Part shown: in pieces, positions 12,554-63,656 of the stretch
Position numbering within the stretch: the first letter of the stretch is position 1
Layout: each line of letters begins with the position of its first letter
Source of the DNA: Mustelus asterias
Lineage: Eukaryota
Direction of reading: 5' to 3'
Length of the DNA stretch: 64,000 bases
Assembly (NCBI RefSeq): GCF_964213995.1
Contig: NC_135821.1
Coordinates: 29,884,001-29,948,000 of the forward strand
Notes under the pieces: model-generated
Database searches by the model: none
The model's input: the letters and a program-made list of their open reading frames with translations, nothing else
Told to the model about the DNA's origin: nothing
Position numbers and translations under genes: made by a program

Positions 12554-12875
12554 GGCTGCACGGTGGCACAGTGGTTAGCACTGCTGCCTCACAGCGCCAG
12601 GGACCCGGGTTCAATTCCAGCCTCGGGTCACTGTCTGTGTAGAGTTTGCACATTCTCCCCGTGTCTGCGTGGGTTTCCTCCGGGTACTCCAGTTTCCTCC
12701 CACTGTGTGAAAGACGTGCTGGTTAGGGTGCATTGGCCGTGCTAAATTCTCCCTCAGTGTACCCGAACAGGTGCTGGAGTGTGACGACTAGGGGGGGTTT
12801 CACAGTAACTTCATTGCAGTGTTAATGTAAGCCTTACTTGTGACACTGATAAATAAACTTTACTTTACTTTTTTT
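12554..12875 (+). mobile_element. HE1-like SINE with the alternative (AATAAATAAACTTT) tail. Similar copies at about 20140-20430, 21685-21950 and 27495-27790(-)
   Basis: GGCACAGTGGTTAGCACTGCTGCCTCACAG head and V-SINE core. Confidence 0.85.
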
Positions 12876-14943: not shown

Positions 14944-17900
14944 GTGTCTTTGCAAAGACGGTCTGGAGCGAGTTGAGGTGGTTTTTGTTGAGGTTCATCC
15001 TGAGCAGCTCCGTGACGCAGGACTTTAATAGAATCCCTACAGCGCAGAAGGAGGCCATTCAGCCCATCGAGTCTGCACCGACCACAATCTCAACACAGGC
15101 CCTATCCCCATAACCCTATTTATTTGCCCTACTAACCCCCTGACACTAAGGGACAATTTAGCATGGCCAATCAACCTAACCCGCACATCTTTGGATTGTG
15201 GGAGGAAACCGGAGCACCCGGAGGAAACCCATGCAAACATGGGAAGAATGTGCAAACTCCACACAGACAGTGATCCAAGCCGGTAATTGAACCCAGGTAC
15301 CCGACAGTGCTAACCACTGTGCCACCGCACCGCCCAACTCTGCTCTACGGGCTGTTTCCAGGGACGCACACTGAGACAAATATTAACTGCTGCTGGAGGG
15401 TCATCAACTCAGTGAAGGACGCACTTTGGTCCACCCAAAACTTGCTGATCTTCCAGTGCAAAGATTTGTCCTTGACGCTGGCACATTCCAAGGTCCAGGA
15501 CTACGTGCTCAGGGACGCGCTCAAGCTTGGGGCAGCCGCCGCAAAGGCACAATGGGGAAAGGCCACCGTGTAAAGCGTCTCAACCGAGGCAGACCGAGGG
15601 GCTGGTAATTATGTAAAACTACTCAGCCAGCATCTTTGTCAGAGAATGTATATTATAAATATCACATGTAATTACAATAGTATTGAACAGCACAAGCTGT
15701 CTGGAAAGAACTGGAACAAGATTGCAGTTTGGGTACCGTAACTATACAAATTTTTATAAATAAAGTATGTATTTTTTAAAAAATGGTTGAGTGATTAAAA
15801 TTATGGATGCATAAGAACCAGAACTGGAGGAGCACAGAGATCTCCGAGGGTTGGAGGAGGTTACAGAGATAGCGATGGAGAGAGCACGGAGAGGTTTGAA
15901 AACAGATGAGAGCCCGGGGGTGATGGATCAGTGTGAACCCATGCCAGATAGAATGTGGGCAACAGATTTGGTTCTGTTGAAGTTTATCCTAGAATTATAG
16001 AATAATTTTAAAAAGCCTTTTGACCCAGTGTGCCCATGCCAGTCCTTTGAGAGAGCTTAATCCTATTCTCCTACTCTCTTCCCAGAGCCTGGAATTACTT
16101 TTCCCCCTTCCAGTAATTGTCCAATTCAGTTTTGAACGTTATTATTGAATCTGCTTCCACCACAATTCCACAGGGTATGTTCCAGATCACAAGTCACTTT
16201 GCAAATAAGATTTCTTTCACACTGCTGTTTTGGAAAGAAAGTTACTGCAAGTAAACCAAATCTGATACTGAATCTCTGAAGGTCACACTGAATTAATCAC
16301 AAGAGATCTATATTTACCATAAATACTTGTGTAAATGTCAAATTTTTATGAGCATTCTTTAGAACGAATGCCATGCGGTCGACTTTTCCGCAGGTAATGT
16401 TCATAAGTGATTGCTCAACGTGCTTCATTTAGGAATAAAGTAAAAACTAAGAACACTAAAGAATTCAGTCTGATTATCAATCATAATTCAACCTTGGCTG
16501 AGAAATCCTTACTTTAATAATTTGAATAAACGAAAACAAAACTTAAAAATAGAAATACTTGAAGTATCAATCTTAGAATCCCTACAGTGCAGAAGGAGGC
16601 CATTCAACCCATCGAGTCGACACCAACTCTCTGGTAGGACATCTTACCCTGGCCCTATCCCCGTAACCCCACTAATTCCCCCCTAACCTTGGGGCACTAA
16701 GGGAGAATTTAGCATCAGCAATCCACCTAACCTGCACATCTTTGGACTGCGGGCGGAAACCAGAGCACCCGGAGGAAACCCACGCAGACATGGGGAGAAT
16801 GTGCAAACTCGACATAGGCAGTTACCCAAGGCTGGAATTGAACCCGGGTCTCTGGCACTGTGAGGCAGTGGTGCTAACCACTGTGCCACCGTGCCGTGGT
16901 GACCTACTTATTGATATTCAAATTGAATAATGAACACCTCCAGGCTTATACTTTGGTTCTGAAATTTTGGACTTTGACCCTTGAACAATTTGGCTGAACT
17001 TTTACAAAAGTACACATGAGCTCAATATCTCAGCTAAGGTTATATTTAAACATCATTTACTGAAAATGATCCACATTTTGGCTTCTCTTCCTACTTTGAA
17101 ACTTCTTTAATTCTTTTGCCTTCTAGGGGAAAGTGGGGTCACAAATTTAAAAGTTTATTTTCTTCAATAGAGTTAAATTAGATGCCGTGAAGAAATTCCC
17201 CATAAACCAATTAACATCTACGTCAATTCAAGACTGCATTAAGGATCACTATATCTGGATACTATCTCTCACAGTGGCACGTGATTGGCACTGCTGCCTC
17301 ACAGCTCCAGGGACCTGGGTTTGGTTCCCGGCTTGGGTCACTGTCTGTGTGGAGTTTGCACATTCTCCCTGTGTGCAAACGGGGAGAATGTGCAAACTCC
17401 GGGTTTCCTCCGGGTGCTCAGGTTTCCTCCCATAGTCCAAAGATGTGCTGGTTAGGTTGATTGGCCATGATAAATTGCTTCTTAGTGTCAGGGGATTAGC
17501 AGGGTGAATATGTGGGGTTATGGGAATAGGGCCTGGGTGGGATTGTGGTCGGTGCAGACTCGATGGGCCGAATGGCCTCCTTCTGCCCTGGGGGGATTCT
17601 ATGATTAACATTCAACATTAATTTACAAAGGAGCCTGAAATACAAATCACTATTATCTCTTTGTGACAAGAATAAACACAGGTGGAAACACAGAGGGAAC
17701 CAACCTGATTCTGTCGAGAGAGAATTTACAGACCTGTAGAAAGGTTTGGTCTGCTCCATATTCTCAGCTTTGGACTGATATGATCTCCACGTTAGAAAAA
17801 AGTCAGTTATTTTTGGTTGGGCAAATGGTGCAGGTTCTCCATCAGTTCCTGTAATCTGATGATGCGGTTTGGGTGGTATGTAAGTGTGTGGAGAAAAGTC

Positions 17901-18094
17901 AGAAGCATATTAAAGATCGAAACAAGAAGAAGCCATTTGGCCCTTCGAGCTCGCTGCACCATTTGATAAGATAATGGCTGATCTGATTGTGGTCTCAATG
18001 CCACATCTTACCCAGGCCTGGCTCCTTGGTGCTGCGAGGCAGCATTGCAGCAGCGCTGTGCCACCATGGGAATTTTATCCCTAGTTCGAGACTG

Positions 18095-18975
18095 GACAAA
18101 TTCCTCTTCAACTCCATTTTCAAGTTTGCTGATGACACCACTGTTGTGGGTCGGATCTCAAACAATGACGAGACAATTGTATTAAGACAGGAAAGAGATA
18201 GAGAATCTGGTGAACTGGTACAAAGACAATAATCTCCCCTTCAATGTCAGTAAAATGAAAGAGGTAGTCATCGGCTTCAGGAAGTGTAAAGGAGAACATG
18301 CCCCTGTCTACATCAATGGGGATGAAGTGGAAATGGTCGAGAGCTTCAAGTTTCTAGGTGTCCAGATCACCAACAAACTGTCCTGGTCCCTCCATGCTAA
18401 CGCTATAGTTAAGATGCCTCTACTTTCTCAGAAGACTAAGGAAATTTGGCATGTCCACGATGACGCTCACCAACTTTTACAGATGCACCATAGAAAACAT
18501 TCTTTCTGGTTGTATCACAGCTTGGTATGGTTCCTGCTCTGTCCAAGACCACAAAAAACCATAATGGATTGTGAATGTAGCCCAATCAATCACGCAAACC
18601 AGCCTCCCATCCATTGACTCCGTCTACACTTCCCGCTGCCTTGGAAAAGTAGCCAGCATAATTAAGGACCCCACGCACCCCGGTATACTCTGTTCACTCT
18701 TCCATCTTCTTGTCGGGAAAAAGATACAAAGGTCTGAGAACATGTACCAACTGACTCAAGAACAGCTTCTTCCCTGCTGCCATCAGACTTTTGAATGGAC
18801 CTACCATATATTAAGCTGACCTTTCTCTATGCCCCATCTGTAACTGCAATGCTATATTCTGCACTCTCCTTTCCTTCTCCCCTATGTGCTCTATGAATGG
18901 TATGTTTTGTCTGTATAGTGCGCAAGAAACAATACTTTTCACTGTATCCCAATACATGTGAGAATAATAAATCAA
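18095..18975 (+). mobile_element. Rex1/Babar-type LINE RT 3' fragment
   Basis: KFADDTTVVGRISNNDE, FKFLGVQIT and KDPTHPG; AATAAATCAA tail. Confidence 0.85.
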
Positions 18976-21900
18976 CCAACATCCTATTGAACGTGTTTCA
19001 ATTCGATCTCCTCTCATTCTCCTAAATTCTAGGGAATGTCGACACAATCTCATCTTAATGCGCAACGCACTGAGCTCAGGATTTAACCTAGTGAGCTGAA
19101 CACGGAATCCTTCAAAGGCGAGTATATCCTTCATTGAGAAAGGAGAGAAAAACTGTACAAAGTACCTGAGTCTGAACAGGGCTCTATATCATTATAGTAA
19201 GACCTCTTTACTCTTATACTCAATCTCAAAGGCTAACATACCATTGTCCTTCCTAATTGTTTGCAGTTCCTGCATATTAACATTCTGTGATTTGTGTACA
19301 GACACCCAGGTCTCTCTGAATACCAACAATTCCCAGTCTGTCACCACTCTGCTTTTTCATTTTTGCCACTAAAGTGGACACACTTTGCCACATTATATTC
19401 CATTCTTGGTCTCTCAGGTCACCCATCTCAATCCTTGTGTAGTCTCATCGAGCCTCTTCACTGCTTGCTAGCTTTGTATCATTAACAAATTTGGAAACAT
19501 TTTACTTGGTCCCTTCATCCAAGTCAATAACTTCAATTTTAAATAGCTGAGACTTAGGCATTGTTTCTTGTTATACACAGCCAACCCGAAAATGACTGTT
19601 CATTCTCTCTATTTTCTGTCCATTAACCAATGTTCAATCCATGCTAATCTATTATCCCTAATCCCTAGATCTCCAATGTTGTGAAATAACATAGAAACAT
19701 AGAAAAACTACAGCACAAACTGGCCCTTCGGCCCCACAAGTTGTGCCGAACATATCCCTACCTCCTAGGCCTACCTATAACCCTCCATCCTATTAAGTTC
19801 CATGTACTCATCCAGGAGTCTCTTAAAAGTCCCTATTGAGTTTGTCTCCACCACCACTGACGGCAGCCGATTCCACTCGCCCACCACCCTCTGTGTGGAA
19901 AACTTCCCCCTAACATTTCCCCTGTACCTAACCTCTAAATAACCTCTTGCGTGGCACCTTAATTAATGTTTGTTTTTGAAAATCCGAATGTACTACACCC
20001 ACTGTTTCTCCGTTATCTGCAAGCCCTGCTAGTTGTAACCTCAAAAATACTCAAAAAGACTTGTCAAACATGATTTCCCTTTCATCATTTCGAACTGACC
20101 CAGCCTAATCATGTTATGATTTTCCAAGTGCCCTATTGAGGGTGGCACGGTGGCACAGTGGTTAGCACTGCTGCCACACAGCGCCAGGGACCCGGGTTCG
20201 ATTCCCGGCTTGCGTCACTGCCTTTGCAGAGCTTGCGGGTTTCCTCCGGGTGCTCCAGTTTCCTCCCACAGTCCAAAAGACATGCTGGTTATGTGCATTG
20301 GCCATGCTAAATTCTCTCTCAGTGTACCTGAACAGGCATCAGAGTGTGGCGACTAGGGGATTTTCACAGTAACTTCATTGCAGTGTTAATGTAAGCATAC
20401 TTGTGACTAATAAATATAACTTTAACTTTTACCATATCCCAAATAACAGATTTAGCAATTTCCCAATGACTGATGTTATGCTAACTGGCCTGTAGCTCCC
20501 TATATTTTCTCTACCTCCTTTCTGGAATATGGGATTACCTTGCTAATTTCCAACTCATGGGAACCACTCTAGAAGTTAGGACATTTTGGACAATTTAAAC
20601 TAATGCATCCACTATCTATCTCCACAGCCACTTCTTATAAAACCAGAGGGCCATTAGTTCCAGGGGATTTGATAACTCTTTGAAACATTTATTTCTCCAG
20701 TACTATGCCAGGTGGCACGGTAGCACAGTGGTTAGCACTGCTGCTTCACAGCTCCAGGGACCTGGGTTCGATTCCTGGCTTGGGTCACTGTCTGTGTAGA
20801 GTTTGCACATTCTCCTCATGTCTGCGTGGGTTTCCTCCGGGTGCTCCGGTTTCCTCCCACAGTCCAAAGATGTGCGGGTCAGGTTGATTGGCTATGCTAA
20901 AATTGCCCTTAGTGTCCTGAGATGTGTGGATTAGCGGGTAAATATGTGGGGATATGGGCGGAGGGCCTGGGTGGAATTGTGGTCGGTGCAGACTCGATGG
21001 GCCGAAGGGCCTCTTTCTGTACTGTAGGGTTTCTATGATATCATACTATCTCTTTATTGATATCAACTTCTTTAAGTTCCTCATTCTTGCTGGGACTCTT
21101 ATTTGTGTTTTTCTGTCCTAAAGACAGATCAATAATGTTTGCTTAATGTCACTGCCATTGCCTGATACTGAATTATCAATTTCCTCTGTTTCTGTCTCCA
21201 ACAAACTCACATTTACTTCTACGCTCCCTTTCTTACATTTCAATAAGAAACTTTTGTAATCTCATTTCCTGTCTCTCGATAATTTCCTCTCACATCCCCT
21301 CTTTCCTTTCTTGATTCTTTTATCAGTCATCATTTGCTGATTTCCAAAATTCTCCCAGTTCTCAGTCTTGCTATTTTTCTTTGCAGCGTTAGAAATATCT
21401 TCCTTTAATCTAATGATATTTATAAATTATTTTGTTATCTATGGTTCGACCACTTTTCCTGTGGGGAATTTTATTCCTTCATGAATTACTTGTGTAAAAA
21501 TATGCAATTGTTTATCCAGCATCGTTTTAATTTATTTAATGTAATTTCCCAATCTACTTTAACTAACTCACCTCTCAGACCTGAGCATATTGTTTTGTTC
21601 AGATTGACCGATACTAGATCTAAAATAAGCTGTTGTTGGTCCCTCAATATTCTGACCTAGAAAACAGTCTTGTATACTATGTCAGCGGCACGGTAGCACA
21701 GTGGTTAGCACTGCTAATTCACAGTGCCAGGGACCTGGGTTTGATTCCTGGCTCGGGTCACTGTGTGGAGTTTGCATGTTCCCCCGTGACTGCGTGAGTT
21801 TCCTCCAGTTTCCTCCCACATTCTGAAAGGCGTGCTGGTTAGGGTGCATTGACCCGAACAGGCGCCGGACTGTGGCGACTAGGGGAATTTCACAATAACT

Positions 21901-23265: not shown

Positions 23266-26200
23266 AGGACCAGATCGCCTCCACGGAGGCAGGCTCAGGG
23301 GTCCGGAAGGGAAAGAAGGGGTTTAGGAGAGCGATAGTTGTGGGGGACGCAATGGTTAGAGGTACGGACAGGCGCTTCTGTGGGACTGAACGAGAATCCA
23401 GGATGGTAGTCTGCCTCCCTGGTGCCGGGGTACTGGATGTCTCCGAGAGGGTAGGAAGCATATTTAAAAAGGAAGGTAGTCAAACGGATGTGATTGTACA
23501 CATTGGGGGAAATGATGTAGGTAGGAAGAGCAGGGGGGTCATACGAGAGAAATTCAGGGAGTTGGGTGCTAGGCTAAAAAGAAAGACCTCCAGGGTAGCA
23601 ATATCTGGACTGCTCCCGGTGCCTAGTGCAAGTGAGGCTCGGAACAGGGAAATTCTACAGTTGAACGCGTGGCTAAAGGACTGGTGCAAGAGGGAGGGTT
23701 TTTAAATTCAGAAGATAACTGGGAAATCTTCAAGTCAGGATGGCAACTGTACAGAAAGGATGGGTTACACCTTAACTGGAAGGGAGCAAATATCCTGGCT
23801 GTGAGTTTTGCTAGAGTGTTTCGGCAGGATTTAAACTAGTGTGGCAGGGGGGTGGGGAACAAAACAGGAGGTCAGTAAATACTGAGGCTGGGGTCGAGCT
23901 GGGGGCCAGGGCAAGGCTAGCTAAGAAGATGAGCACTCTGGAGGAGGAGGACCTGACTGGGCCTGGAGGTCTGGAGTGCATCTGCTTCAATGCGAGGAGT
24001 GTAACGGGTAAAACAGACGAACTTAGGGCCTTAATGCTTGTGCGGAATTTGGATGTGGTTGCGGTGACGGAAACTTGGTTAAAAGAAGGACAGGACTGGC
24101 AACTGAATATTCCGGGGTATAAGTGTTTTAGGCGAGACAGAGGAGGGGCTAAAAAAGGTGGGGGAGTAGCGATATTAGTTAAGGAGCATATTACCGCGGT
24201 ACAGAGGGTAGACAACTTAGAGGGGTCATGTACTGAGTCGCTGTGGGTGGAACTCAAAAACAGGAAGGGTGCAGTCACTATGCTGGGGGTGTACTACAGA
24301 CCACCCAACAGCCCACGGGAAGTGGAGGAAAGGATATGTCAGGAGATTCTGGATAGGTGCAGAAAAAATAGGGTTGTTGTAGTGGGGGACTTTAATTTCC
24401 CTGGCACAGACTGGAAAGTGCTTAGAGCTGGGGGACCGGACGGGGAGGAATTTGTAAAATGCGTACTGGAAGGTTCTTTGGAACAGTATGTAGATAGCCC
24501 GACTAGAGAGGGGGCTATACTGGACCTAGTTCTGGGAAATGAGCCCGGTCAGGTCGTCAAAGTTTCGGTAGGGGAACATGTGGCAAATAGTGACCACAAC
24601 TCTGTTAACTTTAGGATAGTAATGGACAAGGATGAGTGCTGTCCTACGGGCAGGGTGCTAAATTGGGGGAAGGCTGACTATAGCCGGATTAGGCAGGAAT
24701 TGGTGGATGTTGATTGGGAGAGGATGTTCGAGGGTAAGTCCGCGTCTGGCATGTGGGAGTCTTTTAAGGAACTATTGATAAGGCTGCAGGATAGGCATGT
24801 GCCTGTAAAAAGGAAAGATAGGAAAGGTAGGATTCGAGAGCTGTGGATAACCAGGGAAATTGAGGATCTGATTAAAATGAAAAGGGAGGCGTACGTTAAG
24901 TCCAGGCAACTGAAAACAGATGGAGCTCTGGAGGAATACAGAGAGAGTAGGAAAGATCTCAAACGGGGAGTTAGAAGGGCAAAAAGAGGTCACGAGATGT
25001 TCTTGGCAGGCAGGATTAAGGAGAATCCTAAGGCATTCTATTCATACGTTAGGAACAAAAGAGTTGTCAGGGAGAAAATCGGACCTCTCAGGGACAAAGG
25101 AGGGGAATTATGCTTAGAACCCAAGGGAATAGGGGAGATCCTAAATGAATACTTTGCATCGGTATTCACGAAGGAGAGGGGTGTGTTAACCGGGAGTGTC
25201 TCGGAGGGAGGTGTTGACCCGTTAGAGAAAATCTCCATTACAAGAGAGGAAGTGTTAGGTTTTTTAGGGAACATTAAAACTGACAAAGCCCCAGGGCCTG
25301 ATGGCATCTATCCTCGACTGCTCAGGGAGACGAGAGGTGAAATTGCTGGGCTTCTGACGGAAATCTTTGTCGCTTCTTTGGACACGGGTGAGGTCCCTGA
25401 GGATTGGAGGATAGCGAATGTGGTCCCGTTGTTTAAGAAGGGTAGCAGGGATAACCCAGGAAATTATAGGCCGGTGAGCTTGACGTCCGTGGTAGGGAAG
25501 TTGTTGGAGAGGATTCTTAGAGACAGGATGTATGTGCATTTAGAACGGAACAATCTCATTAGTGACAGACAGCATGGTTTTGTAAGAGGGAGGTCGTGCC
25601 TTACAAATTTGGTGGAGTTTTTTGAGGAAGTGACAAAAAAGGTTGACGAAGGAAGGGCCGTGGATGTCGTCTATATGGATTTCAGTAAGGCATTTGACAA
25701 AGTCCCACATGGCAGGTTGGTTAAGAAGATTAAGGCTCATGGGATACAAGGAGAAGTGGCGAGATGGGTGGAGAACTGGCTTGGCCATAGGAGACAGAGG
25801 GTAGTGGTCGAAGGGTCTTTTTCCGGCTGGAGGTCTGTGACCAGTGGTGTTCCGCAGGGCTCTGTACTGGGACCTCTGCTATTTGTGATATATATAAATG
25901 ATTTGGAAGAAGGTGTAACTGGTGTAATCAGCAAGTTTGCGGATGACACGAAGATGGCTGGAATTGCGGATAGCGAAGAGCATTGTCGGGCAATACAGCA
26001 GGATATAGATAGGCTGGAAAATTGGGCGGAGAGGTGGCAGATGGAATTTAATCCGGATAAATGCGAAGTGATGCATTTTGGAAGAAATAATGTAGGGAGG
26101 AGTTATACAATAAATGGCAGAGTCATCAGGAGTATAGAAACACAGAGGGACCTAGGTGTGCAAGTCCACAAATCCTTGAAGGTGGCAACACAGGTGGAGA

Positions 26201-26848
26201 AGGTGGTGAAGAAGGCATATGGTATGCTTGCCTTTATAGGATGGGGTATAGAGTATAAAAGCTGGAGTCTGATGATGCAGCTGTATAGAACGCTGGTTAG
26301 GCCACATTTGGAGTACTGCGTCCAGTTCTGGTCGCCGCACTACCAGAAGGACGTGGAGGCATTGGAGAGAGTGCAGAGAAGGTTTACCAGGATGTTGCCT
26401 GGTATGGAGGGTCTTAGCTATGAGGAGAGATTGGGTAGACTGGGGTTGTTCTCCTTGGAAAGACGGAGAATGAGGGGAGATCTAATAGAGGTGTACAAGA
26501 TTATGAAGGGTATAGATAGGGTGAACAGTGGGAAGCTTTTTCCCAGGTCGGAGGTGACGATCACGAGGGGTCACGGGCTCAAGCTGAGAGGGGCGAAGTA
26601 TAACTCAGACATCAGAGGGACGTTTTTTACACAGAGGGTGGTGGGGGCCTGGAATGCGCTGCCAAGTAGGGTGGTGGAGGCAGGCACGCTGACATCGTTT
26701 AAGACTTACCTGGATAGTCACATGAGCAGCCTGGGAATGGAGGGATACAAACGATTGGTCTAGTTGGACCAAGGAGCGGCACAGGCTTGGAGGGCCGAAG
26801 GGCCTGTTTCCTGTGCTGTACTGTTCTTTGTTCTTTGTTCTTTGTTCT
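23266..26848 (+). mobile_element. Young 5'-truncated CR1 LINE (partial SGNH-esterase-type ORF1, ORF2, (TTCTTTG)n tail)
   Basis: ORF1 remnant GDAMVRG...HIGGNDV...DGLHLN with a frameshift near 23700. Tandem 3' tail present. Confidence 0.93.
23839..26763 (+). CDS. CR1 LINE ORF2 (APE endonuclease + reverse transcriptase), uninterrupted 974 aa
   Basis: NARS, TETW, YRPP, GDFN and SDH endonuclease motifs; QHGF, DFSKAFD, GVPQGS and FADD RT motifs. Confidence 0.96.
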   Translation: MWQGGGEQNRRSVNTEAGVELGARARLAKKMSTLEEEDLTGPGGLECICFNARSVTGKTDELRALMLVRNLDVVAVTETWLKEGQDWQLNIPGYKCFRRDRGGAKKGGGVAILVKEHITAVQRVDNLEGSCTESLWVELKNRKGAVTMLGVYYRPPNSPREVEERICQEILDRCRKNRVVVVGDFNFPGTDWKVLRAGGPDGEEFVKCVLEGSLEQYVDSPTREGAILDLVLGNEPGQVVKVSVGEHVANSDHNSVNFRIVMDKDECCPTGRVLNWGKADYSRIRQELVDVDWERMFEGKSASGMWESFKELLIRLQDRHVPVKRKDRKGRIRELWITREIEDLIKMKREAYVKSRQLKTDGALEEYRESRKDLKRGVRRAKRGHEMFLAGRIKENPKAFYSYVRNKRVVREKIGPLRDKGGELCLEPKGIGEILNEYFASVFTKERGVLTGSVSEGGVDPLEKISITREEVLGFLGNIKTDKAPGPDGIYPRLLRETRGEIAGLLTEIFVASLDTGEVPEDWRIANVVPLFKKGSRDNPGNYRPVSLTSVVGKLLERILRDRMYVHLERNNLISDRQHGFVRGRSCLTNLVEFFEEVTKKVDEGRAVDVVYMDFSKAFDKVPHGRLVKKIKAHGIQGEVARWVENWLGHRRQRVVVEGSFSGWRSVTSGVPQGSVLGPLLFVIYINDLEEGVTGVISKFADDTKMAGIADSEEHCRAIQQDIDRLENWAERWQMEFNPDKCEVMHFGRNNVGRSYTINGRVIRSIETQRDLGVQVHKSLKVATQVEKVVKKAYGMLAFIGWGIEYKSWSLMMQLYRTLVRPHLEYCVQFWSPHYQKDVEALERVQRRFTRMLPGMEGLSYEERLGRLGLFSLERRRMRGDLIEVYKIMKGIDRVNSGKLFPRSEVTITRGHGLKLRGAKYNSDIRGTFFTQRVVGAWNALPSRVVEAGTLTSFKTYLDSHMSSLGMEGYKRLV

Positions 26849-31493: not shown

Positions 31494-32345
31494 GATTGAA
31501 ATGAGTAGTGGTGCCCCATTATTCTTTAAAAGAGGAACCGTTGGATTGTCACTGGCCAAGGCTAACCATGACATCTGGGCTTGGGTGCAGACTTGTGGGA
31601 AGTTTGAGGTTTGCGAATGGACACGAGGCAATCCCTGTCCTGGGACACCCGAGTGCGGCAGTAGCCGCAGCAGTGAGCAGGGCAGTTGGAAGAGAAGGTC
31701 CTCTTGTCTGTGTGTTGTCTGGAACTGTGGGTGACCTACCTCGAGCGGGCACAGGGGCAGACCCACGATGAAATCCTCCGCATCAGCGGCCAAATGTAGA
31801 GCAGTCTGCACCTGAAGTGCAGCCAAAGGTTGAGACGCAGTCTCTTCAAGGAGTGACCAGGGGTCCTCCTTTTCTAACAAAGGGTCATCCAGACTCTCCA
31901 ATGTTGGCTCTATTCTCTCTCCACAGAATTTATCAGACCAGCTGAGTCTTTCCAGCATTTTCTGTTTTTGTTTTGGATTCAGCATTTTGCCTTTATCTCC
32001 TCTTCTCACTTCTGAAATGTATCATTTTGCAGCTCCTTATATCAAACTGCATCTACCGCCTAATCTGCATCCCCCCAGCCACTTTCTCATTATTTACCCT
32101 AATGTTAAGATTGAAGTAGGCAGTAAATTTCCATATTGTTCTAATCATGTCTTTATATCTCATGCCCTTTAAACTTATATTCTTTGTTTTCTCCCCTCCA
32201 ACCGCCTCTATCGATGTGACCCCGGGTTCAAAGTGCTATTATCTTTGCTTCCAAATCTCTGAATGTGTTTTCTCATCACATTTGCCCAAATATACTTGAT
32301 GTACTTTTTATCGTGTTCCTTCTGCTGACAAGTTCAGATATTTAC

Positions 32346-32708
32346 CTGCAAGCTTCAGTGTGGTTCCATTTCCAAAGGCTAAGATCCCATGTCGCCAGCC
32401 AGCACAGTAATAATGCCCAGCATCAGAAACATCCACTCTCTCTATCGTTAAGTTTAAACTCTGGTGATCCAGGCTCATTTTAATGGATGAGGATCTGGAA
32501 ATCTCCTCAGAAATGAAGACTTGCTTGGAGTTGATGAATGAATAGGCCAGAATGGAGGGAGGTTGCTCACCCTGCTGCTTCAGCCAGTACACATTGGTAT
32601 AATCATAAATGGCCCTGCTCTTCACAAAACATGACAGTGTCACAGTGTCTCCCAGTCTAACTGGCTGGGATCGAGCCGGCTGCAAGATCAGGTGACTACA
32701 GTCCGCAT
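32346..32708 (-). CDS. Ig superfamily V-set domain exon with germline-encoded J-like segment (VJ-type)
   Basis: Acceptor ttgctttcctgttctatccag|AT and donor GCAG|GTAAAT, 363 nt, phase 1-1. Motifs GDTVTLSC, VYWLKQ, LNLTI, DAGHYYC and FGNGTTLKL. No stops. Confidence 0.93.
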
Positions 32709-32834
32709 CTGGATAGAACAGGAAAGCAACAAGACACAGAATCAAAGGCATTTTCATTATAGAATCCCACATAATTCCCACATTATACTGTCGCAGCCTA
32801 AAGCACTCGGAAATAAGCCTAGAGTCATGCATTG

Positions 32835-37345: not shown

Positions 37346-37552
37346 CAGTAAGAAGTTTAACAACACCAGGTTAAAGTCCAACAGGTTTATTTGGTAGCAA
37401 AAGCCACACAAGCTTTTGGACCTGAAGAAGGGGCTTGGGGCTCCGAAAGCTTGTGTAGCTTTTGCTACCAAATAAACCTGTTGGACTTTAACCTGGTGTT
37501 GTTAAACTTCTTACTGTGTTTACCCCAGTCCAACACCGGCATCTCCACATCA
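37346..37552. mobile_element. Palindromic Penelope pLTR remnant
   Basis: About 70-bp inverted arms plus tail. Confidence 0.85.
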
Positions 37553-38651: not shown

Positions 38652-38723
38652 GGCCCCATGGTGTAATGGTTAGCACTCTGGACTTTGAATCCAGCGATCC
38701 GAGTTCAAATCTCAGTGGGACCT
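38652..38723 (+). tRNA. trnQ-TTG: tRNA-Gln (anticodon TTG)
   Basis: GGCCCCATGGTGTAATGGTTAGCACTCTGGACTTTGAATCCAGCGATCCGAGTTCAAATCTCAGTGGGACCT. A and B boxes intact, TTTT terminator at 38731-38734, one T-stem mismatch at 38714. Confidence 0.92.
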
Positions 38724-42209: not shown

Positions 42210-43970
42210 CAGAGAGAGAGAAGCAGAACTTCAATAAAGATCGCGCTGAGAGAGAGGTGGACCCGGCGAGTTAAGACAATAAGGGGAGGGAGCTGTGAGG
42301 AGGAGATCACCTCAGCAAGGGTTAAAAGACAGTGACAGTGCAGGAAAACTGCAAGTTCATTGTTTGGTAAGTAACCACTAATTTGAATTATCCATTCTAA
42401 GTTGCTTTCAGAATAAAGGTAAATGGGAGGAATATTTTAGATCAAAAACTTAAGACCACACAAAAATAAAAAAAACGAATTAAATAAATAGAAATGCAGG
42501 GCCAGGCAACGTGTTTTTTTTTGTATTTTTATTCCAATTCAATCCAATCAAGTCCAATTCAGAGTCTCAACAAGTTGAGACATTTCCGATCCAAGCTGAC
42601 AAGACAGGGCCTTCACACCTGTCTTGGGCCTGATCTACATGAGCCAAGCTGATTGGAGTAGGCAGAGGTTTCCTCCTCCAAGGCTTGATCTCATTTGCAT
42701 CTTAGCCAAAAGGCCGAGATGCCGCTTTTAAAAATTGCTTCATATGAAACATATGAAGCTTCAGTGTAACCCAATGACCTCAATCAAGTGCAGCATCCTA
42801 TCCATACTACACTTGATCTTAACCAAAAGGCCTTCATGCATGATGTGGGAGCTGGTGGACCCCGTTGTGGTTCATAGTGACCACATCTGTTGCAAGTGTT
42901 GGTTGCTCAAGGGACTGCAGCTCAGAGCTGATGAGTTGGAGTCTGGGCTTCGGACACTGCGGCACATCAGGGAGGGTTGTGGTTCAGGATACAGTCACAC
43001 CCCTTAGATCAGCTACCTTGAATTCGGTCAGGGACAGAGGCTGTGACTGTGAGTGAAGCAGGTAGAGGGATCTAAGGATAGCACTGCAGGAACCTCAGCC
43101 CCTGCCCGTGTCCTCTTTGCTTAACCCTCTCTCCACTCGCATTGTCTGTACCTGTAAAGATTTGATTACCTGTTAAGACTCGCATTCCAACCATTATCTT
43201 GTAATTGTGTCTATATATGCCCTGTTTGTGAACCGAGCTCTTCACTCACCTGATGAAGGGGCAACGCCAGAAAGCACGTGCTACCAAATAAACCTGCTGG
43301 ACTTTAACCTGGTGTTGTGAGACTTCTTACTGTGCCTTGTCCAACAGGTTTGAGATTCTTACCCCCTGCGTGGATGAGACTGTCGGGGAGATGAACAAAG
43401 TGATCATAGCACCATGGCACAGGGAGTCATTCACGTGGGGGGAAGAAAAGAGAAATGTCGTCATAATAGGGGATGATATAATTAGGAACATAAACACTGT
43501 TCTCTATATCCAGGATCGAGAGTCTCGAAGGATGTATTGCCTACCTGGTGCCAGGGTCCAGGATATCTCAGCTGGGTTGCAAAGGACCTTGTGGTGGGGC
43601 GGAGATCCAATTGTTGTTGTCCATGCAGGTACCAACGATATAGGTAGAATGGGGGGAAGAGATTCTGCAGAGGGAATATGAGGAGCTACGGGGAAAATTA
43701 AAAAGCAGAATTAAAAAGGTAATAATGATCTCCGGATTACTACCTGAACCATGAGCTAATTGGCACAGGGTCGATAAGATTAAAGAGGTAAACGTGTGGC
43801 TCAAAAGTTGGTCTTGGAGAAATGGGTTCAAATTCATGGGACATTGGCACCAGTACTGGGGAAGGAGGGAGCTGTTCCGCTGGGACAGTCTTCGCCTAAA
43901 TCGTACTGGGACCAGAGTCCTGGCGAATCGCACAACTAGGGCTGTAGATAGGGCTTTAAACTAAATAGTG
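42210..43970 (+). mobile_element. CR1 5' region (ORF1 zinc finger + esterase remnant) with nested U2-headed element and Penelope end
   Basis: CMMWEL...HICCKC, SNRFEIL, GDDIIR...CLPGA...HAGTNDIG. Confidence 0.75.
42514..42832 (-). mobile_element. Poly(A)-tailed retroposon with U2 snRNA-derived 5' head (SINEU-like, or a derivative of a U2-targeting LINE)
   Basis: The minus strand starts GGCCTTTTGGtTAAGATCAAGTGTAGTAT (U2 nt 11-39). A second U2 match TCTCGGCCTTTTGGCTAAGAT lies at 42699-42719. It ends in AATAAA...A-tail and interrupts a CR1 ORF1. Confidence 0.8.
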
Positions 43971-56970: not shown

Positions 56971-57658
56971 GATGCCATCATCTCACGTGAGAACACCATC
57001 TACCAGGTACACGGTACATACTCTTGCAACTCGGCCAACGTTGTCTGCCTGATACGCTGCAGGAAAGGATGTCCCGAGGCATGGTACATTGGGGAAACCA
57101 TGCAGACACTACGACAACGGATGAATGAACACTGCTCGACAATCACCAGGCAAGACTGTTCTCTTCCTGTGGGGGAGCACTTCAGCAGTCACGGGCATTC
57201 AGCCTTGGATCTTCAGGTAAACGTTCTCCAAGGCGGCCTTCACGACACACGACAGCGCAGAGTCGCTGAGCAGAAACTGATAGCCAAGTTCCGCACACAT
57301 GAGGACGGCCTAAACCGGGATGTTGGATTTATGTCACATTATCAATAACCCCCACAGCTTTCCCCCTGATCTTGCAGAATCTTACTAGCTGTTCTGTCTG
57401 GAGACAATACACATCTCTTTAACCTGTGTTTAATGTTCCCTCCACCCACATTGTCTGTACCTTTAAGACCTGGCTGGTTGTAGAGATTTGCATTCTAATT
57501 AGTATTCTGTAACTTGATTTCTGTGTCTCTGTGCACTGTTGGAGAACAGATATCCACTCCATCTGACGAAGGGGCAGCGCTCCGAAAGCTTATGGTATTT
57601 GCTACCAAATAAACCTGTTGGACTTTAACCTGGTGTTGTGAGACTTCTTACTGTGCTT
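56971..57658 (+). mobile_element. Penelope-like 3' fragment (GIY-YIG + pLTR)
   Basis: Same GIY-YIG peptide as 761-1236, with the pLTR ending in CTTACTGTGCTT. Confidence 0.93.
57559..57595 (+). ncRNA. Minimal hammerhead ribozyme (Penelope pLTR)
   Basis: ccat CTGACGA A GGGGC agc GCTCC GAA AGCT T atgg. Confidence 0.82.
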
Positions 57659-58957
57659 GCCCAAAGGAGGCAGAGAGTGGGTATAGATGGGTCTTTTTCT
57701 AAATGGAGGTCGGTCACTAGTGGTGTGCTCCAGGGAACTGTTCTGGGACCCTTGCTGTTTGTCATTTTCATAAATGACCTGGATGAGGAAGTGGAGGGAT
57801 GGGTTGGTAAGTTTGCCGACGACACGAAGGTTGGTGGGGTTGTGGATAGTCTGGAGGGATGTCAGAAGTTACAGAGGGACTTAGATAGGATGCAAGACTG
57901 GGCGGAGAAGTGGCAGATGAACTTCAACCCAAATGAATGCATAGTGGTCCATTTTGGCAGGTCAAATGGGATGAAGGGGTACAATATAAAGGGAAAGACA
58001 TTTAGTACTGTAGAGGATCAGAAGGACCTTGGGGTCCGGGTCCATAGGACTCTAAAATCGGCCCCGCAGGTGGAGGAGGTGGTTAAGAAGGCGTATGGTG
58101 TGCTGGCCTTTATCAATCGAGGGATTGAGTTTAGGAGTCCAGGGATAATGATGCAGCTATATAAGACCCTCGTCAGACCCCACTTGGAGTACTGTACTCA
58201 GTTCTGGTCGCCTCATTACAGGAAGGATGTGGAAAAGATTGAAAGGGTGCAGAGGAGATTTACAAGGATGTTGCCTGGATTGAGTGGCATGCCTTATGAG
58301 GATAGGCTGAGGGAGCTCGGTCTTTTCTCCTTGGAGAGACGTAGGATGAGAGGAGACCTAATAGAGGTATATAAGATGTTGAGAGGCATAGATCGGGTGG
58401 ACTCTCAGAGGCTTTTTCCCAGGGTGGAAATGGCTGCTACGAGAGGACACAGGTTTAAGGTGCTGGGGGGTAGGTACAGGGGAAATGTTAGGGGGAAGTT
58501 TTTCACACAGAAGGTGGTGGGTGAGTGGAATCGGCTGCCGTCAGTGGTGGTGGAGACAAACTCAATAGGGTCTTTTAAGAGACTCCTGGATGAGTACATG
58601 AGACTTAATAGGATGGAGGGTTATAGGTAGGCCTAAAAGGTAGGGATATGTTCGGCACAACTTGTGGGGCCGAAGGGCCTGTTTTGTGCTGTAGTTCTTC
58701 TATGTTTCTATGTTTCTATGAATGTATGCGTCGGGAAACAGGTAGTTTAGGTGATCTATATTTGTATTGTTAAATATTAGAAATAAAGTATCGACTTAAG
58801 TGGATTGAATTTAATGGCTTTGTGTAAGAAGAGTGAAATTCTAGTTAGATTGATGGGTTTTAGTTCGTTCAAACTGTGTTTCTATTGTGCTTAGAGAGGG
58901 TTTTGGTATGAAAAGTAAATAAAAGCTTGCAGAAGGAAAGATTGGTTGCTAAGTAAC

Positions 58958-61900
58958 TGTGGTGAACCATCGTTGGTTCACCATTGGGGGTTGTTATTAT
59001 GTTACTGTTGGGCTAGGGTGTTGTTACTGTGGGGGTTGTACTATGTTGTTGGGTTAGGGTGTTTACCTGTTATAAGTGTTACCATGGCACATTCCAGTGG
59101 GGTCCCGCCTCCGGTGGCGAGGTATAAGACCCTCTGCTCCGGCAGGACCCCTTCAGTCTGAACTGGTGTATTCGTGTTAGTAGTTCCATTGTTACACAAT
59201 AAAAGCCTTCAATATCGAAGCCTTGGTTCCACGTGCTTAATTGTCGCGCATCAATTTTATTGTGTAACAGAAAACTCGCAGCTGTACAAAAAAAAAGAGT
59301 ATGGAACAGATCTTAAAACCGGATCGTCTGGCACTGGACCCACGTACGGTCGGTGCCGCTAACACATTCGACCATTGGTGGAAGTGTTTCGAGGACTACC
59401 TGGCAGCCTCTGTAGCTATCACTACAGATAGTGATAAACTCCAGGTCCTCCACGCAAGGGTAAGCGACATGATTTATCTCGCCATTCGTGCAGCTCCCAC
59501 TTACCCGAGGGCCGTTGAGCTCCTAAAAAAACGATACACGAAGCCACCCAACGAGATACACGCTCGTTACCTCCTCGCTACACGACGTCGGCAGTCGGGC
59601 GAAACCATGGAGGACTACGCCAATGAGCTCCTGCAGCTTGCCAGGGGTTGCGATTGTAGAGACGTATCAGCCGAACAATATATGTACGACCTCGCCCGAG
59701 ACGCGTTCGTAGCAGGGGTAGGGTCCTCGTACATCAGGCTTCAATTGCTGGAAAAGGGGAACCTCGACTTGACCCAAGCAATGGAGATGGCTGGGATGCT
59801 GGAAGCGGCGTCGAAGAGCTTGGCGCTGTACCCCGAGGACCACGTGCAGTCAACGTGGCAGGAGCAAGCTCAGCTCCCTCCTCGCCCCGCTAACCCGCGC
59901 TCCCAGATCGATCCGACGACGGCGGCAGCTCCAGGTGGCCAGCGATGCTATTTTTGTGGTGGGGCCAAGCATCCACGGCAACAGTGTCCGGCAAGAACGG
60001 CAATCTGCAGCCAGTGCGGTAAAAAAGGCCACTACGGCAAAGTCTGCAGGTCAAAGTCTAAAAACGGCAGTGCAGCTTGTAACCCTCCAGAACGGAGACA
60101 ATCTCCTTCGGCGTTGCAGTACCCACGAGGTCCGACCACGTGCGAACCCAGGACGGCGCCATCGTGGCTGACGGAGGAGGAGGAAGACCACCAGGAGTCG
60201 CTGCGTTTGGCGCCCTCGCCCACGTGCGATTCATGGGGGCAGCCATCATGGTCCACGACGACTAGGAGCGACCAGCAGGGGTCCTCAGCATCAACATCGG
60301 CGGCATGCAGTGACGCCCAGGGGCCAACGGTGGCGTCGATCTCCCTAGACCAGACCAAGCACTACAGGCTTGAGAATTCCATGATGGATATAAAGGTAAG
60401 TGGTCGAACTGTGAATTGTCTGTTTGACAGTGGGAGCACCGAAAGTTTCATACACCCTGAAACTGCTAAAAGGTGTGGACTCCGGGTTCTCCCTGCCAAG
60501 CAGACAATTTCCATGGCATCACGGTCCCGGTCTGTACCGATCCAAGGACGATGTATGGTAACTCTTGAGGTACAGGGCACAATTTACGAGCAATACAGGC
60601 TCCTTGTGTTACCTCACCTTTGTGCGCCAATTCTCCTCGGACTAAATTTTATGGTCCACATGAAGAGTGTGATCCTACAGTACGGTGGGCCACTCCCTTC
60701 ACTGGCAGTAGGGAATCAGCTGCAGCCTCCAAATTGCCCAAAGCGCCCCGCATGCAATCTATCCACCTTGAAAATCACTACACCGTCCCTCTTTAAGAAT
60801 CTGGTACCTGGCTGCAAGCCCATCGCTACTAAAAGTAGGCGTTACAGCGCTGAGGACCGGATCTTTATTAGATCTGAGGTTCAGCGGCTCCTCAAGGAAG
60901 GGATCATACAGGCCAGTGCTAGTCCGTGGAGAGCGCAGGTCGTGGTAGTCAAAAGCGGGAACAAACCTCGGATGGTCATCGACTATAGTCAGACCATTAA
61001 TCGTTATACGCAGCTGGATGCGTATCCTCTCCCGCGCATTTCTGATATGGTCAATCAGATTGCGCAGTACCGAGTGTTCTCTACCATAGACCTTAAGTCC
61101 GCCTACCATCAACTCCCCATCCGCCCAGAGGACCGACAATATACGGCTTTTGAGGCGGATGGTCGTCTGTACCAATTCCTCAGGGTTCCATTTGGTGTCA
61201 CCAATGGGGTCTCGGTCTTCCAGCGTGCTATGGACCGAATGGTGGACCAGAACGGGTTGCGGGCTACCTTCCCGTACCTGGATAACGTCACCATCTGCGG
61301 CCATGACCAGCAGGACCACGACACGAATCTCCAACACTTTCTGCGCACTGCATCTCGCCTGAATCTGACCTATAACAGGGAGAAGTGCGTATTCCGTACG
61401 CGCAGGTTAGCCATCCTCGGATACGTGGTGGAAAACGGGGTCATTGGCCCTGATCCAGACCGTATGCGCCCACTTACTGAACTTCCCTTGCCCGCTAGCA
61501 CGAAAGCACTGAGGAGATGCCTCGGGTTCTTTTCGTACTATGCACAGTGGGTCCCCAACTACGCGGACAAAGCTCGTCCGCTCATTAAGTCCACGACCTT
61601 CCCACTTACGCCGGAGGCCCAATTGGCCTTCAAGGTTTTGAAAAGCGACATCTCGAAAGCCACGATGCACGCGGTGGATGAATCCATCCCTTTCCAGGTG
61701 GAGAGTGATGCATCTGATTTCGCCCTAGCCGCCACACTAAACCAGGCAGGCAGGTCCGTCGCGTTCTTTTCCCGCACCCTTCAAGGCCCCGAAATTCGGC
61801 ACTCAGCGGTGGAGAAGGAGGCTCAGGCCATTGTGGAGGCAGTCAGACACTGGCGCCATTACCTGGCTGGGAAGCGGTTCACCCTGATCACGGATCAACG

Positions 61901-63656
61901 ATCCGTGGCGTTTATGTTCAGCAACACGCAGAGGAGCAAGATCAAGAACGATAAGATCTTGCGGTGGAGAATTGAGCTCTCCACCTATAATTACGATATT
62001 ATGTATCGTCCAGGGAAGCTCAATGAGCCCTCGGATGCCCTCTCGCGCGGAACATGCGCCATCATGCAGGAGGACCGCTTGAAGGCTCTCCACAATGATC
62101 TGTGTCATCCTGGAGTCACCAGACTCTACCATTTCGTCAAAGCCCGCAACCTGCCCTACTCGGTGGAGGATGTCAGGTCAGTGACGAGAAGCTGTCGGAT
62201 TTGCGCAGAATGCAAACCACACTTTTATCGACCAGACCGGGCACAATTGGTCAAGGCCACTCGCCCTTTTGAGAGGCTGAGTGTGGATTTTAAGGGCCCC
62301 CTTCCCTCAACGGACCGGAATGTCTATTTCCTCAACATAATAGACGAGTACTCCCGGTTCCCGTTTGTTGTCCCCTGTGCGGACACGTCGACTGCCACCG
62401 TCATCAAGGCATTCAGTGAGCTTTTTACCCTGTTCGGGTACCCCTGCTACATTCATAGCGACAGGGGCTCGTCGTTCATGAGCAACGACTTGAGGCAATT
62501 CCTGCTCTCATTCGGGATTGCCTCTAGTAGAACCACGAGCTACAACCCTAGGGGTAACGGACAGGTGGAAAGGGAGAATGCTACAGTCTGGAAGGCTGTC
62601 CTACTGGCACTGAAATCCAGGGGCCTTCCAGTCTCCCGTTGGCAGGAGGTCCTTCGAAATGCGCTCCATTCTATCCGCTCCCTCCTGTGTACGGCAACCA
62701 ATGCTACTCCCCACTAGAGGATGTTCTCATTCCCTCGGAAGTCGTCCTCGGGGATCTCATTGCCAGCCTGGTTGACGTACCCAGGACCCGTCCTTCTGCG
62801 GCGACATGTGAGGGCTCGCAGGTCCGACCCCTTGGTCGAACCGGTCCAACTCCTCCACGCCAACCCTCAGTATGCCTATGTGGCATATCCTGACGGGCGA
62901 GAGGACACTGTCTCCATTAGAGACCTGGCGCCCGCAGGGGACGTAACAACTCCTGTCGCTCCTATTCCCCCAGTCACGAATCCACTACTCCTCATTGCTT
63001 CCCCAGACGTGGCGCGGTCAGCACCGGGACCAGTGCATAACACTTTTACTCCCATGTACAGCTTGCCTGAGACTCGGAGATCGGCGCCACCATCACCACC
63101 ACCACCACCACCACCAAAGGTTCCAGGATCCCCTGCACCATCGCCTCACCAGGGCCAACCGGCCCGGGAGTCCTTGAGGGGACAGCCGGACGTTGTTTTG
63201 GAGAGAACGCCACCGCAAGCACCTGCTCCGGTTTCGCAACCGGTGTTGAGGAGATCACAGCGTCGGTGCGGTCCTCCAGACCGTCTGGACTTGTGAATTC
63301 TGTTTATATGACCTGTTTTTCTTGCACCCCGCCACCTTTTGTTTTTAAAGGAGGGGTGAATGTGGTGAACCATCGTTGGTTCACCATTGGGGGTTGTTAT
63401 TATGTTACTGTTGGGCTAGGGTGTTGTTACTGTGGGGGTTGTACTATGTTGTTGGGTTAGGGTGTTTACCTGTTATAGGTGTTATCATGGCACATTCCAG
63501 TGGGGTCCCGCCTCCGGTGGCGAGGTATAAGACCCTCTGCTCCGGCAGGACCCCTTCAGTCTGAACTGGTGTATTCGTGTTAGTAGTTCCATTGTTACAC
63601 AATAAAAGCCTTCAATATCGAAGCCTTGGTTCCACGTGCTTAATTGTCGCGCATCA
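58958..63656 (+). mobile_element. Full-length Ty3/Gypsy LTR retrotransposon
   Basis: 296-bp LTRs (58958-59253 and 63361-63656), TG...CA, 2 differences seen. 5-bp TSD GTAAC. PPT AAAGGAGGGGTGAA at 63347-63360. Confidence 0.97.
59301..63296 (+). pseudogene. Gypsy gag-pol polyprotein (Gag with two CCHC knuckles, protease, RT, RNase H, integrase) with one in-frame TAG at 62715-62717
   Basis: CYFCGGAKHPRQQC, CSQCGKKGHYGKVC, LFDSGS, DLKSAYHQ, YLDN, ESDASD, HHCC zinc finger and D-D-E (VDFKG/HSDRG/VERE). The frame continues after the stop (TPH*RMFSF). Confidence 0.93.

What the first reader, a model, noticed from the sequence alone, without database searches (positions are those of the whole stretch)
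42514..42832. U2 snRNA-headed, poly(A)-tailed retroposon in a shark (SINEU-like)
Seen: an about 320-nt minus-strand insertion splitting a CR1 ORF1. It starts with U2 nt 11-39, contains a second U2 piece (nt 7-27, then 24-31) split by an ATGCAAAT octamer, then unique sequence, AATAAA and an A tail. Known: snRNA-headed SINEs are described from crocodilians; Keno/Utopia LINEs insert in U2 near this position; the octamer is the snRNA distal enhancer motif. Inference: a possible independent U2-derived SINE family, or a non-autonomous partner of a U2-targeting LINE.
Basis: partly seen in the sequence, partly recalled or inferred. Interest (0 to 1): 0.78.

Follow-up and report, generated by a model that had tools for sequence, protein, structure and literature searches.

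The report
Abundant shark U2-headed retroposon family
This short insert is one copy of a very abundant jumping-DNA family, likely of sharks, that starts with a piece of the U2 splicing RNA predicted to be folded shut by a matching antisense stretch; my searches found such elements in print only for crocodilians, so it is likely a second, independent origin.

Summary
Observation confirmed. 42514-42832 (minus) is a 319-nt non-coding insert in ORF1 of a dead CR1: U2 nt 11-39, a second U2 piece (nt 7-27, 24-31), AATAAA, A tail; no target duplication, 1-3 target bases lost. It is not a one-off. In raw genomic reads of one coded organism its 3' 220 nt reach depth 5,100-8,600 from 1,922.5 Mb, about 2,700-4,500 copies per Gb of genome, with mixed 3' flanks. 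Contigs of three more coded organisms carry it. It would mask U2's splicing-active 5' bases. The octamer is probably incidental. Best reading: a SINEU-like family, likely Tx1/Keno-mobilised (head ends at the Keno/Utopia site), independent of crocodilian SINEU. Open: partner LINE, promoter, share of copies with the outer head, and whether Repbase/Dfam already holds it.

The parts
42514..42832 (-). whole U2-headed, A-tailed non-coding retroposon copy (319 nt; the last two A may be target-derived, then 42516)
   Evidence: depth step from about 1 to over 2,000 at 42511 in X23; longest stop-free frame 45 codons
42804..42832 (-). outer head = U2 snRNA nt 11-39, ending at the Keno/Utopia insertion point (nt 38/39)
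   Evidence: alignment; PMC4640811; 189 of 197 X23 reads have the U2 letter at 42822
42797..42803 (-). 7-nt loop between head and antisense arm
42768..42796 (-). antisense arm: in-register inverted copy of the U2 head, predicted 25 pairs, 9 of them G-U
   Evidence: arm also seen in reads or contigs of X23, X14, X15 (tables 5c, 7, 8)
42737..42759 (-). AT-rich 10-pair hairpin; length varies among copies and it is absent from one X14 contig
   Evidence: tables 4, 5c, 7
42730..42734 (-). T5 run (T4 runs also in both U2 pieces), unfavourable for Pol III read-through
   Evidence: argument as in PMC4494074
42699..42719 (-). inner U2 piece, nt 7-27, exact; its stem is predicted to be extended to 42722-42697
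   Evidence: pair probabilities 0.94-1.0
42693..42700 (-). ATGCAAAT octamer, overlapping U2 nt 26-27 and the 3' strand of the stem; probably incidental
42684..42691 (-). U2 nt 24-31 repeated
42534..42683 (-). non-U2 body: three predicted hairpins and a short 5/10-nt tandem repeat before the tail
   Evidence: depth 5,100-8,500 in X23
42528..42533 (-). AATAAA
42514..42527 (-). A-rich tail
   Evidence: mixed flanks beyond it in other copies (table 7)
42494..42515 (+). host CR1 ORF1, first 7 codons (MQGQATC)
42833..43964 (+). host CR1 ORF1, remainder (zinc-finger-like start, GDSL esterase), dead: stop, frame changes and a second repeat insert

Best explanation
The insert is one copy of a high-copy, dispersed, non-coding, A-tailed repeat family that carries two U2 snRNA 5' pieces, likely a SINEU-like retroposon of sharks copied in trans by a Tx1/Keno-type LINE, with its U2 head predicted to fold back on an antisense arm. 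Shown: anatomy, insertion into a CR1 ORF1 without target duplication, thousands of similar sequences with mixed 3' flanks, presence in four coded organisms. Inferred mechanism: (1) a source copy sits where U2 nt 1-38 is joined to the body, either a U2 gene interrupted at the Keno/Utopia site or a template switch onto U2, and is transcribed from an outside Pol II promoter (T runs argue against Pol III; AATAAA and A tail fit Pol II); (2) the arm pairs with U2 nt 11-39, which would hide the branch-site- and U6-pairing bases so that the RNA is not handled as, and does not compete with, U2; (3) a LINE reverse transcriptase primes at the A tail on a T-rich nick (TT microhomology here), stops or is truncated at U2 nt 11, and joins with loss of 1-3 target bases; (4) the inner U2 piece is likely an older head, the outer one a later 5' addition as described for SINEU-1.
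For: Family: run X23 raw WGS, 15,596 of 13,065,944 reads laid; summed depth 5,133-8,640 over 42531-42750, against 0-4 on the left flank and 100-190 on the CR1 right flank; 2,670-4,494 copies per Gb of genome, about 11,000-19,000 if the genome were 4.2 Gb like spiny dogfish (PMC10468316; the real size is unknown). The body bins are not U2, so U2 genes cannot explain the depth. Dispersed: loose ends at 42514 (673 reads, agreement 0.35) and 42526 (693 reads, 0.40), same in X14 (35 and 135 contigs, 0.38-0.40). Discrete unit: depth does not rise toward the 3' end as for 5'-truncated LINE tails. Other loci with head plus arm: X1 record 4 (42696-42832, 17 differences), two X14 joints into 42799 and 42806 whose intervening letters resemble the arm (by eye), X15 record 23 (42694-42797). 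Hairpin: -28.5 kcal/mol vs -8.6 for the other strand, 0 of 2,000 arm shuffles as stable; transitions at 8 of 18 pair-tolerant sites and 0 of 10 pair-breaking sites, one-sided Fisher p 0.014; all 4 listed X23 majority variants at paired hairpin positions keep the pair. Junction: empty-site relatives read ...QVMCCSCMMW; no shared word of 6 or more letters across the junctions. Tx1 link: PMC4494074 reports Tx1-Mar clustering with Keno, U2-headed Tx1-11_Crp, and both duplications and truncations at SINEU-2 sites.
Against: No partner LINE was found; the only Tx1/L1-like fragment in the window (13251-13610, weak zf-RVT) shares nothing with the element. Only about a tenth of the peak depth aligns on the 5' module in X23 (795-892 over 42751-42790, 312 at 42811-42830) and under 1% in X14; loose ends at 42733 (1,722 reads) and 42749 (3,010 reads) continue in related sequence and the tool drops human-like reads, so the share of copies with the outer head is unresolved. 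4 of the 10 listed variants at paired positions elsewhere in the element break the predicted pair. The wobble bias could also come from strand-biased deamination or editing rather than selection. Transcription and polymerase were not shown. Only 40 of 124 variant rows and 24 of 831 loose-end rows were printed.
Confidence: 0.72

Rival explanations
1. It is a non-autonomous, internally deleted Keno/Tx1 LINE: U2 nt 1-38 leader plus the LINE's 5' UTR (the antisense arm) fused to its 3' UTR, rather than a SINE with a body of its own.
For: Head ends at nt 38/39, where Keno and Utopia insert. An element-side sequence pairing with the co-transcribed target flank would suit a U2-gene-resident LINE (inference). 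An earlier unchecked note reports a U2-headed Keno-type LINE in a cartilaginous fish (e1-7789567).
Against: No rise of depth toward the 3' end and mixed, non-U2 3' flanks (reads with U2 nt 39 onward may be filtered as human-like). No coding remnant. Heads ending near this point could also come from template switching.
Confidence: 0.3
2. The real family is the 3' module alone (about 42514-42735, inner U2 piece plus body); the outer head and arm mark only a subfamily, to which this copy belongs.
For: Depth falls from 5,213 (42731-42750) to 795 (42751-42770) in X23 and from 83,017 to 327 summed word depth in X14. Recurrent 5' addition of U2 pieces is described for SINEU-1.
Against: 4,732 X23 reads and 75 X14 contigs clipped at 42733-42749 continue in letters resembling the window's hairpin and arm (agreement 0.67-0.98), so the drop is at least partly an alignment break at a length-variable hairpin, and human-like reads are dropped.
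Confidence: 0.3
3. The octamer is a working distal sequence element that lets a copy drive transcription of the next copy in head-to-tail pairs.
For: It lies 187 nt from the 3' end, near the 220-bp spacing of snRNA promoters; expected 0.016 times in 319 nt; one X14 contig joins a head to another copy's tail.
Against: It overlaps U2 nt 26-27 and a predicted stem (pair probability 0.97-1.0); 3 copies of the octamer occur in the window; no proximal element was tested; one tandem contig only.
Confidence: 0.06
4. One-off chimeric U2 retrocopy.
For: Single copy in the window; no look-alike among earlier findings; 0 matches in three microbial or viral collections, which are not expected to hold it.
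Against: Thousands-fold depth on the non-U2 body and copies in other coded organisms.
Confidence: 0.01

Closest known systems
SINEU-1 (notably SINEU-1C/E/H/J) of crocodilians; Kojima 2015, PMC4494074 (parts 1-4 of 5 read; figures and supplements not seen)
   Same: Under 500 nt, U2-derived 5' head, more than one snRNA piece, non-snRNA body, poly(A) tail, internal T runs, sites with little or no duplication, thousands of copies (about 7,700 for SINEU-1).
   Different: Reported only from crocodilians; prefer Mariner-N4_AMi; the text read mentions no antisense arm pairing with the head. Here the host is likely a shark, this copy sits in a CR1, and estimated density is higher. Body homology could not be tested.
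Keno (Tx1 clade, U2-gene-specific) and U2-headed Tx1-11_Crp / Tx1-Mar; via PMC4494074, PMC4640811 and passages of PMC6136364; Kojima and Fujiwara 2004 itself not read
   Same: U2 sequence stops at the nt 37-39 insertion point; U2-headed Tx1 families exist outside U2 genes.
   Different: Keno encodes proteins and is followed by U2 nt 39 onward; this element is non-coding and dispersed.
Utopia (NeSL clade, RLE); Kojima and Jurka 2015, PMC4640811 (parts 1-3 of 5, supplement 1 part 1 of 8, motif search of 10 supplements)
   Same: Same U2 site; reptile families insert outside U2 genes, rarely with duplications.
   Different: Sharks are not in its Table 1; the 3' ends seen end without a long A tail; three 10-letter motifs of this element occur in 0 of 10 supplement files (a weak test).
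Chimeric or tailless snRNA retrocopies (discussed in PMC4494074; PMC5322556 passages)
   Same: Short U2 5' piece joined to other sequence.
   Different: Those are independent one-off events; here one body is shared by thousands of copies.

Membership tests
SINEU | 5' head derived from U1 or U2 snRNA | tested here: met
   U2 nt 11-39 at the 5' end, second U2 piece inside
SINEU | short (under 500 nt), non-coding, 3' poly(A) | tested here: met
   319 nt, longest stop-free frame 45 codons, AATAAA and A tail
SINEU | many copies sharing one structure, not independent chimeras | tested here: met
   depth 5,133-8,640 on the 3' module; head, arm and inner piece contiguous in other loci; share with the outer head unresolved
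SINEU | no internal Pol III promoter; oligo-T inside | tested here: inconclusive
   T4, T5, T4 present; a crude pattern scan finds box-like words only inside the U2 pieces; no transcription data
SINEU | target preference shared with a Tx1 partner (Mariner-N4_AMi, Tx1-Mar) | tested here: inconclusive
   this copy is in a CR1; 3' flank agreement 0.35-0.40 shows no dominant target in the rows printed; partner unknown
SINEU | body homologous to SINEU-1/2/3 (same family by descent) | not testable with these tools
   no Repbase or Dfam; supplements of PMC4494074 unavailable
Keno (Tx1 clade) | 5' junction at U2 nt 37-39 | tested here: met
   head ends at nt 38/39
Keno (Tx1 clade) | 3' flank is U2 from nt 39 | tested here: not met
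   3' flank is CR1 here; mixed in 1,366 X23 loose-end reads (human-like reads are dropped, so a minority in U2 genes is not excluded)
Keno (Tx1 clade) | encodes endonuclease and reverse transcriptase | tested here: not met
   no frame over 45 codons
Utopia (NeSL clade) | RT-RLE protein and U2 nt 39 onward at the 3' junction | tested here: not met
snRNA gene promoter (distal element) | octamer about 220 bp upstream of the start with a proximal element at about 60 bp | tested here: not met
   octamer lies 133-140 nt downstream of the 5' end (spacing); proximal element not tested

The most novel reading that the evidence does not exclude
Sharks evolved, independently of crocodilians, a U2-headed SINE family of over ten thousand copies that is transcribed from a U2 gene promoter and carries its own antisense lock: an arm kept under RNA-level selection to pair with U2 nt 11-39, disarming the branch-site and U6-pairing bases so that the RNA escapes snRNP handling and can be polyadenylated and retrotransposed. 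It would be among the most abundant snRNA-headed SINEs known and a tractable system for the open question of how such SINEs are transcribed.
Probability: 0.3. Interest if true: 0.85.

Novelty: new variant of a known kind. Interest (0 to 1): 0.72.

Why it matters
snRNA-headed SINEs are described in print from crocodilians only (PMC4494074; repeated in passages of PMC5381603, PMC5786205, PMC4758252), and that paper leaves their transcription open because U2 has no internal promoter. A second, abundant and fairly homogeneous family (13,524 of 15,596 laid X23 reads at 90% or more identity to this copy) in another vertebrate lineage would show that the design arose more than once, give young copies in which to find the source locus, promoter and partner LINE, and add a feature not mentioned in the SINEU text read: a fold-back arm that would mask the functional part of the snRNA head. 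The family would also offer presence/absence markers for shark phylogeny.

Tried and rejected
Window genome not held, so no genome-wide BLAST, no TSD census and no search for a source copy. Self-BLAST of the window: no second copy. Exact 20-mer scans of metagenome, viral and prokaryote collections: 0 matches each, uninformative for a vertebrate repeat. Whole-window Rfam scan missed U2 (19 weak or unrelated rows). Run search: no RNA holder listed; X15 is only guessed to be RNA, so it is not counted as transcription. X1 matches both flanks with 0 differences and may be the window's source, so it confirms the 3' junction (42371-42541) but is not independent support. Summed contig word depths are not copy numbers and were used only as ratios. 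Table 6 listed no sharp molecule ends. Window Tx1-like fragment as partner: rejected for lack of similarity. Earlier findings by sequence and by place: nothing; by words nothing. Literature: 9 searches listed no paper on a U2-headed SINE in cartilaginous fish; one search had 204 papers, 30 listed; subscription journals, Repbase Reports and Dfam are not covered. PMC5322556 passages gave no U2 end position. Solved-structure search of the Ig exon gave only generic antibody hits.

Full report
Observation. The minus strand of 42514-42832 reads as described. With the numbering of the Rfam U2 consensus printed, 42832-42804 is U2 nt 11-39 (one difference, private to this copy: 189 of 197 X23 reads carry the U2 letter at 42822), 42719-42699 is U2 nt 7-27 without difference, 42691-42684 repeats nt 24-31, and AATAAA (42533-42528) precedes an A-rich tail. 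Chance expectations for the two U2 matches in the window are 4e-11 and 3e-8. The covariance model itself scores only 19.5 bits (E 0.074), since most of U2 is absent. No frame exceeds 45 codons.

Insertion site. The flanks belong to ORF1 of a CR1-type LINE on the plus strand: the right flank has 5 relatives among 21 candidates at 65-73% identity, two full-length ones with a GDSL esterase domain, and they align along 42834-43961. They begin M.GQVMCCSCMM or M.VEVMCCSCMM; 14 contigs of X1 give the same codons before 42833 (table 7). The window has MQGQATC, the insert, then SCMMW. So 1 base of the second Cys codon is lost if the last two tail letters are target, up to 3 if not, and there is no duplication (no shared word of 6 or more letters). 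A contig of X1 crosses the 3' junction with 0 differences over 42371-42541, so the junction is in sequence data; X1 may be the window's source. Two of the 5 relatives are named whale-shark proteins, the basis for 'likely shark'; the coded organisms are unnamed.

Copy number. The window's genome is not held and the window has one copy. The run search listed 24 runs, 20 holding part of the stretch, 11 of them half or more of the 26 words. I laid 4 (82% threshold). In X23, raw genomic reads of organism C, 15,596 of 13,065,944 reads lie on the 600 bases; identity bands are 128, 3,626, 9,770 and 2,072 (99+, 95-99, 90-95, under 90). Depth, both mates summed, is 0-4 left of the insert, 2,131 at 42511-42530, 5,133-8,640 over 42531-42750, 795-892 over 42751-42790, 523 and 312 in the last two bins, and 100-190 on the CR1 flank. 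From 1,922.5 Mb read this is 2,670-4,494 copies per Gb of genome for the 3' module and about 460 per Gb for the arm bin; for a 4.2 Gb genome such as spiny dogfish (PMC10468316, passages) 11,000-19,000 and about 1,900. The genome size of organism C is unknown. X14 (organism E) gave 6,106 contig records, X1 (A) 3,280, X15 (F) 119. Beyond the tail the loose ends disagree (673 reads at 0.35, 693 at 0.40), so copies are dispersed, in AT-rich flanks, and mostly not followed by U2; reads like human DNA are dropped by the tool, so a minority in U2 genes would be invisible. Depth does not climb toward the 3' end, which fits a discrete short element better than a set of truncated LINE tails.

The 5' drop. 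Against a simple picture, only a tenth of the peak depth aligns 5' of 42750 in X23 and under 1% in X14. But 1,722 reads clipped at 42733 and 3,010 at 42749 in X23, and 75 contigs at 42748 in X14, continue in letters resembling the window's AT-rich hairpin and arm; the hairpin varies in length (table 4). Two X14 joints reach 42799 and 42806 through diverged arm-like letters (by eye), X1 record 4 covers 42696-42832 with 17 differences, X15 record 23 covers 42694-42797. Head plus arm is therefore a family trait in at least a subfamily; its share is unresolved. The two X23 clipped groups differ after their first 28 letters, which may mark subfamilies. Only 40 of 124 variant rows and 24 of 831 loose-end rows were printed, and no row shows what lies 5' of 42832 in X23, so extension to U2 nt 1 is untested; one X14 contig suggests a head reaching about nt 8, joined to another copy's tail.

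Structure, the new point. The element strand folds at -118.5 kcal/mol (z -8.37, 0 of 100 shuffles), the other at -90.7 (z -4.79). The first 65 nt form a predicted 25-pair hairpin in which 42796-42768 is an in-register inverted copy of the head: -28.5 kcal/mol against -8.6 for the reverse strand, 0 of 2,000 arm shuffles as stable, 9 G-U pairs; the 15 pairs over U2 nt 25-39 have probability 0.98-1.0. Against a perfect complement, the arm has transitions at 8 of 18 sites where they give G-U and at 0 of 10 where they would break a pair (p 0.014; one site set aside because of the private head change; 4 transversions form two symmetric loops). The 4 listed X23 majority variants at paired hairpin sites all keep the pair; elsewhere in the element 2 keep and 4 break, and 12 of the 22 listed variants fall on unpaired sites (32% of positions, p 0.02; the list is the tool's selection). 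This suggests pairing maintained at the RNA level while the head stays exact U2; strand-biased editing or deamination is an alternative. PMC4640811 states that all U2 bases needed for splicing lie in the first 50 nt, so the arm would cover most of them. That the arm serves as a lock is inference.

Octamer. It lies at 42700-42693, 133-140 nt inside the element. Its first two letters are U2 nt 26-27 and its first four pair with 42722-42719 region letters, extending the inner U2 stem. A distal element acts about 220 bp upstream of a start. I treat it as incidental, with a small chance that it serves a downstream tandem copy.

Mechanism and partner. T runs (T4, T5, T4) argue against Pol III, as argued for SINEU; AATAAA and the tail fit Pol II. 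The head stops where Keno and Utopia insert (downstream U2 starts at nt 39; 37 nt in PMC6136364 passages). SINEU is thought to be moved by Tx1-Mar, which clusters with Keno and includes a U2-headed family, and its sites show duplications, truncations or no change. A Tx1/Keno-type partner is thus the best guess, not shown: the window's one Tx1/L1-like fragment has no similarity to the element. An earlier, unchecked note of a U2-headed Keno-type LINE in a cartilaginous fish (e1-7789567) is a lead only.

Comparison and novelty. It works like SINEU-1 and meets three of its structural features; descent from crocodilian SINEU could not be tested (no Repbase or Dfam; supplements unavailable; figures not held) and the target preference is not matched. 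It is not a Keno or Utopia member. Papers seen: PMC4494074 parts 1-4 of 5; PMC4640811 parts 1-3 of 5, supplement 1 part 1 of 8 and a motif search of 10 files; passages of PMC5381603, PMC10468316, PMC5786205, PMC4758252, PMC6136364, PMC5322556. Nine searches listed no report of a U2-headed SINE in cartilaginous fish; the dogfish genome paper names only HE1 and SacSINE1 as known elasmobranch SINEs in the passages seen. So abundant a repeat may still sit, named or unclassified, in Repbase or Dfam; I put that at about 0.3.

Verdict. Real, a large dispersed family, most likely an independent SINEU-like retroposon of sharks with an unreported antisense arm. New variant of a known kind; interest 0.72.

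Noticed in passing
window 32311-32760 minus: One open frame holds a leader-like stretch and a whole V-set Ig domain ending in a J-like FGxGT motif, followed by a GT donor: looks like a germline-joined VJ-type exon (Pfam V-set 5.6e-15).
   Followed up: partly
window 13251-13610 plus: Dead Tx1/L1-type ORF2 end (zf-RVT E 9e-4, below cut-off; atlas clusters with zf-RVT), no similarity to the U2-headed element.
   Followed up: partly
window 38652-38723 plus: tRNA-Gln(TTG) gene, 59 bits.
   Followed up: no
window 58958-63656: Gypsy-like LTR element with terminal repeats 99.3% alike over 296 bases and a 1,149-codon open frame; apparently young.
   Followed up: no
window 3467-3913 minus: Myb/SANT-like frame (Pfam 1.2e-9) between tandem-repeat arrays.
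   Followed up: no
window 37379-37483: Near-perfect 105-base palindrome made of the ends of a common repeat; gives a sub-threshold mir-548 hit on both strands.
   Followed up: no
window 43115-43344: A second, common repeat (copies at 454-678, 57424-57664; GIY-YIG frames nearby suggest Penelope-like) interrupts the same CR1 ORF1.
   Followed up: no
window 23376-26843 and 6012-9465: Two near full-length CR1 copies 92.6% alike, one with a 982-codon open frame.
   Followed up: no
run X14, joint 42831 to 42528: One contig joins the head of one copy to the tail of another through 26 letters: a possible head-to-tail pair.
   Followed up: no
   Followed up: no
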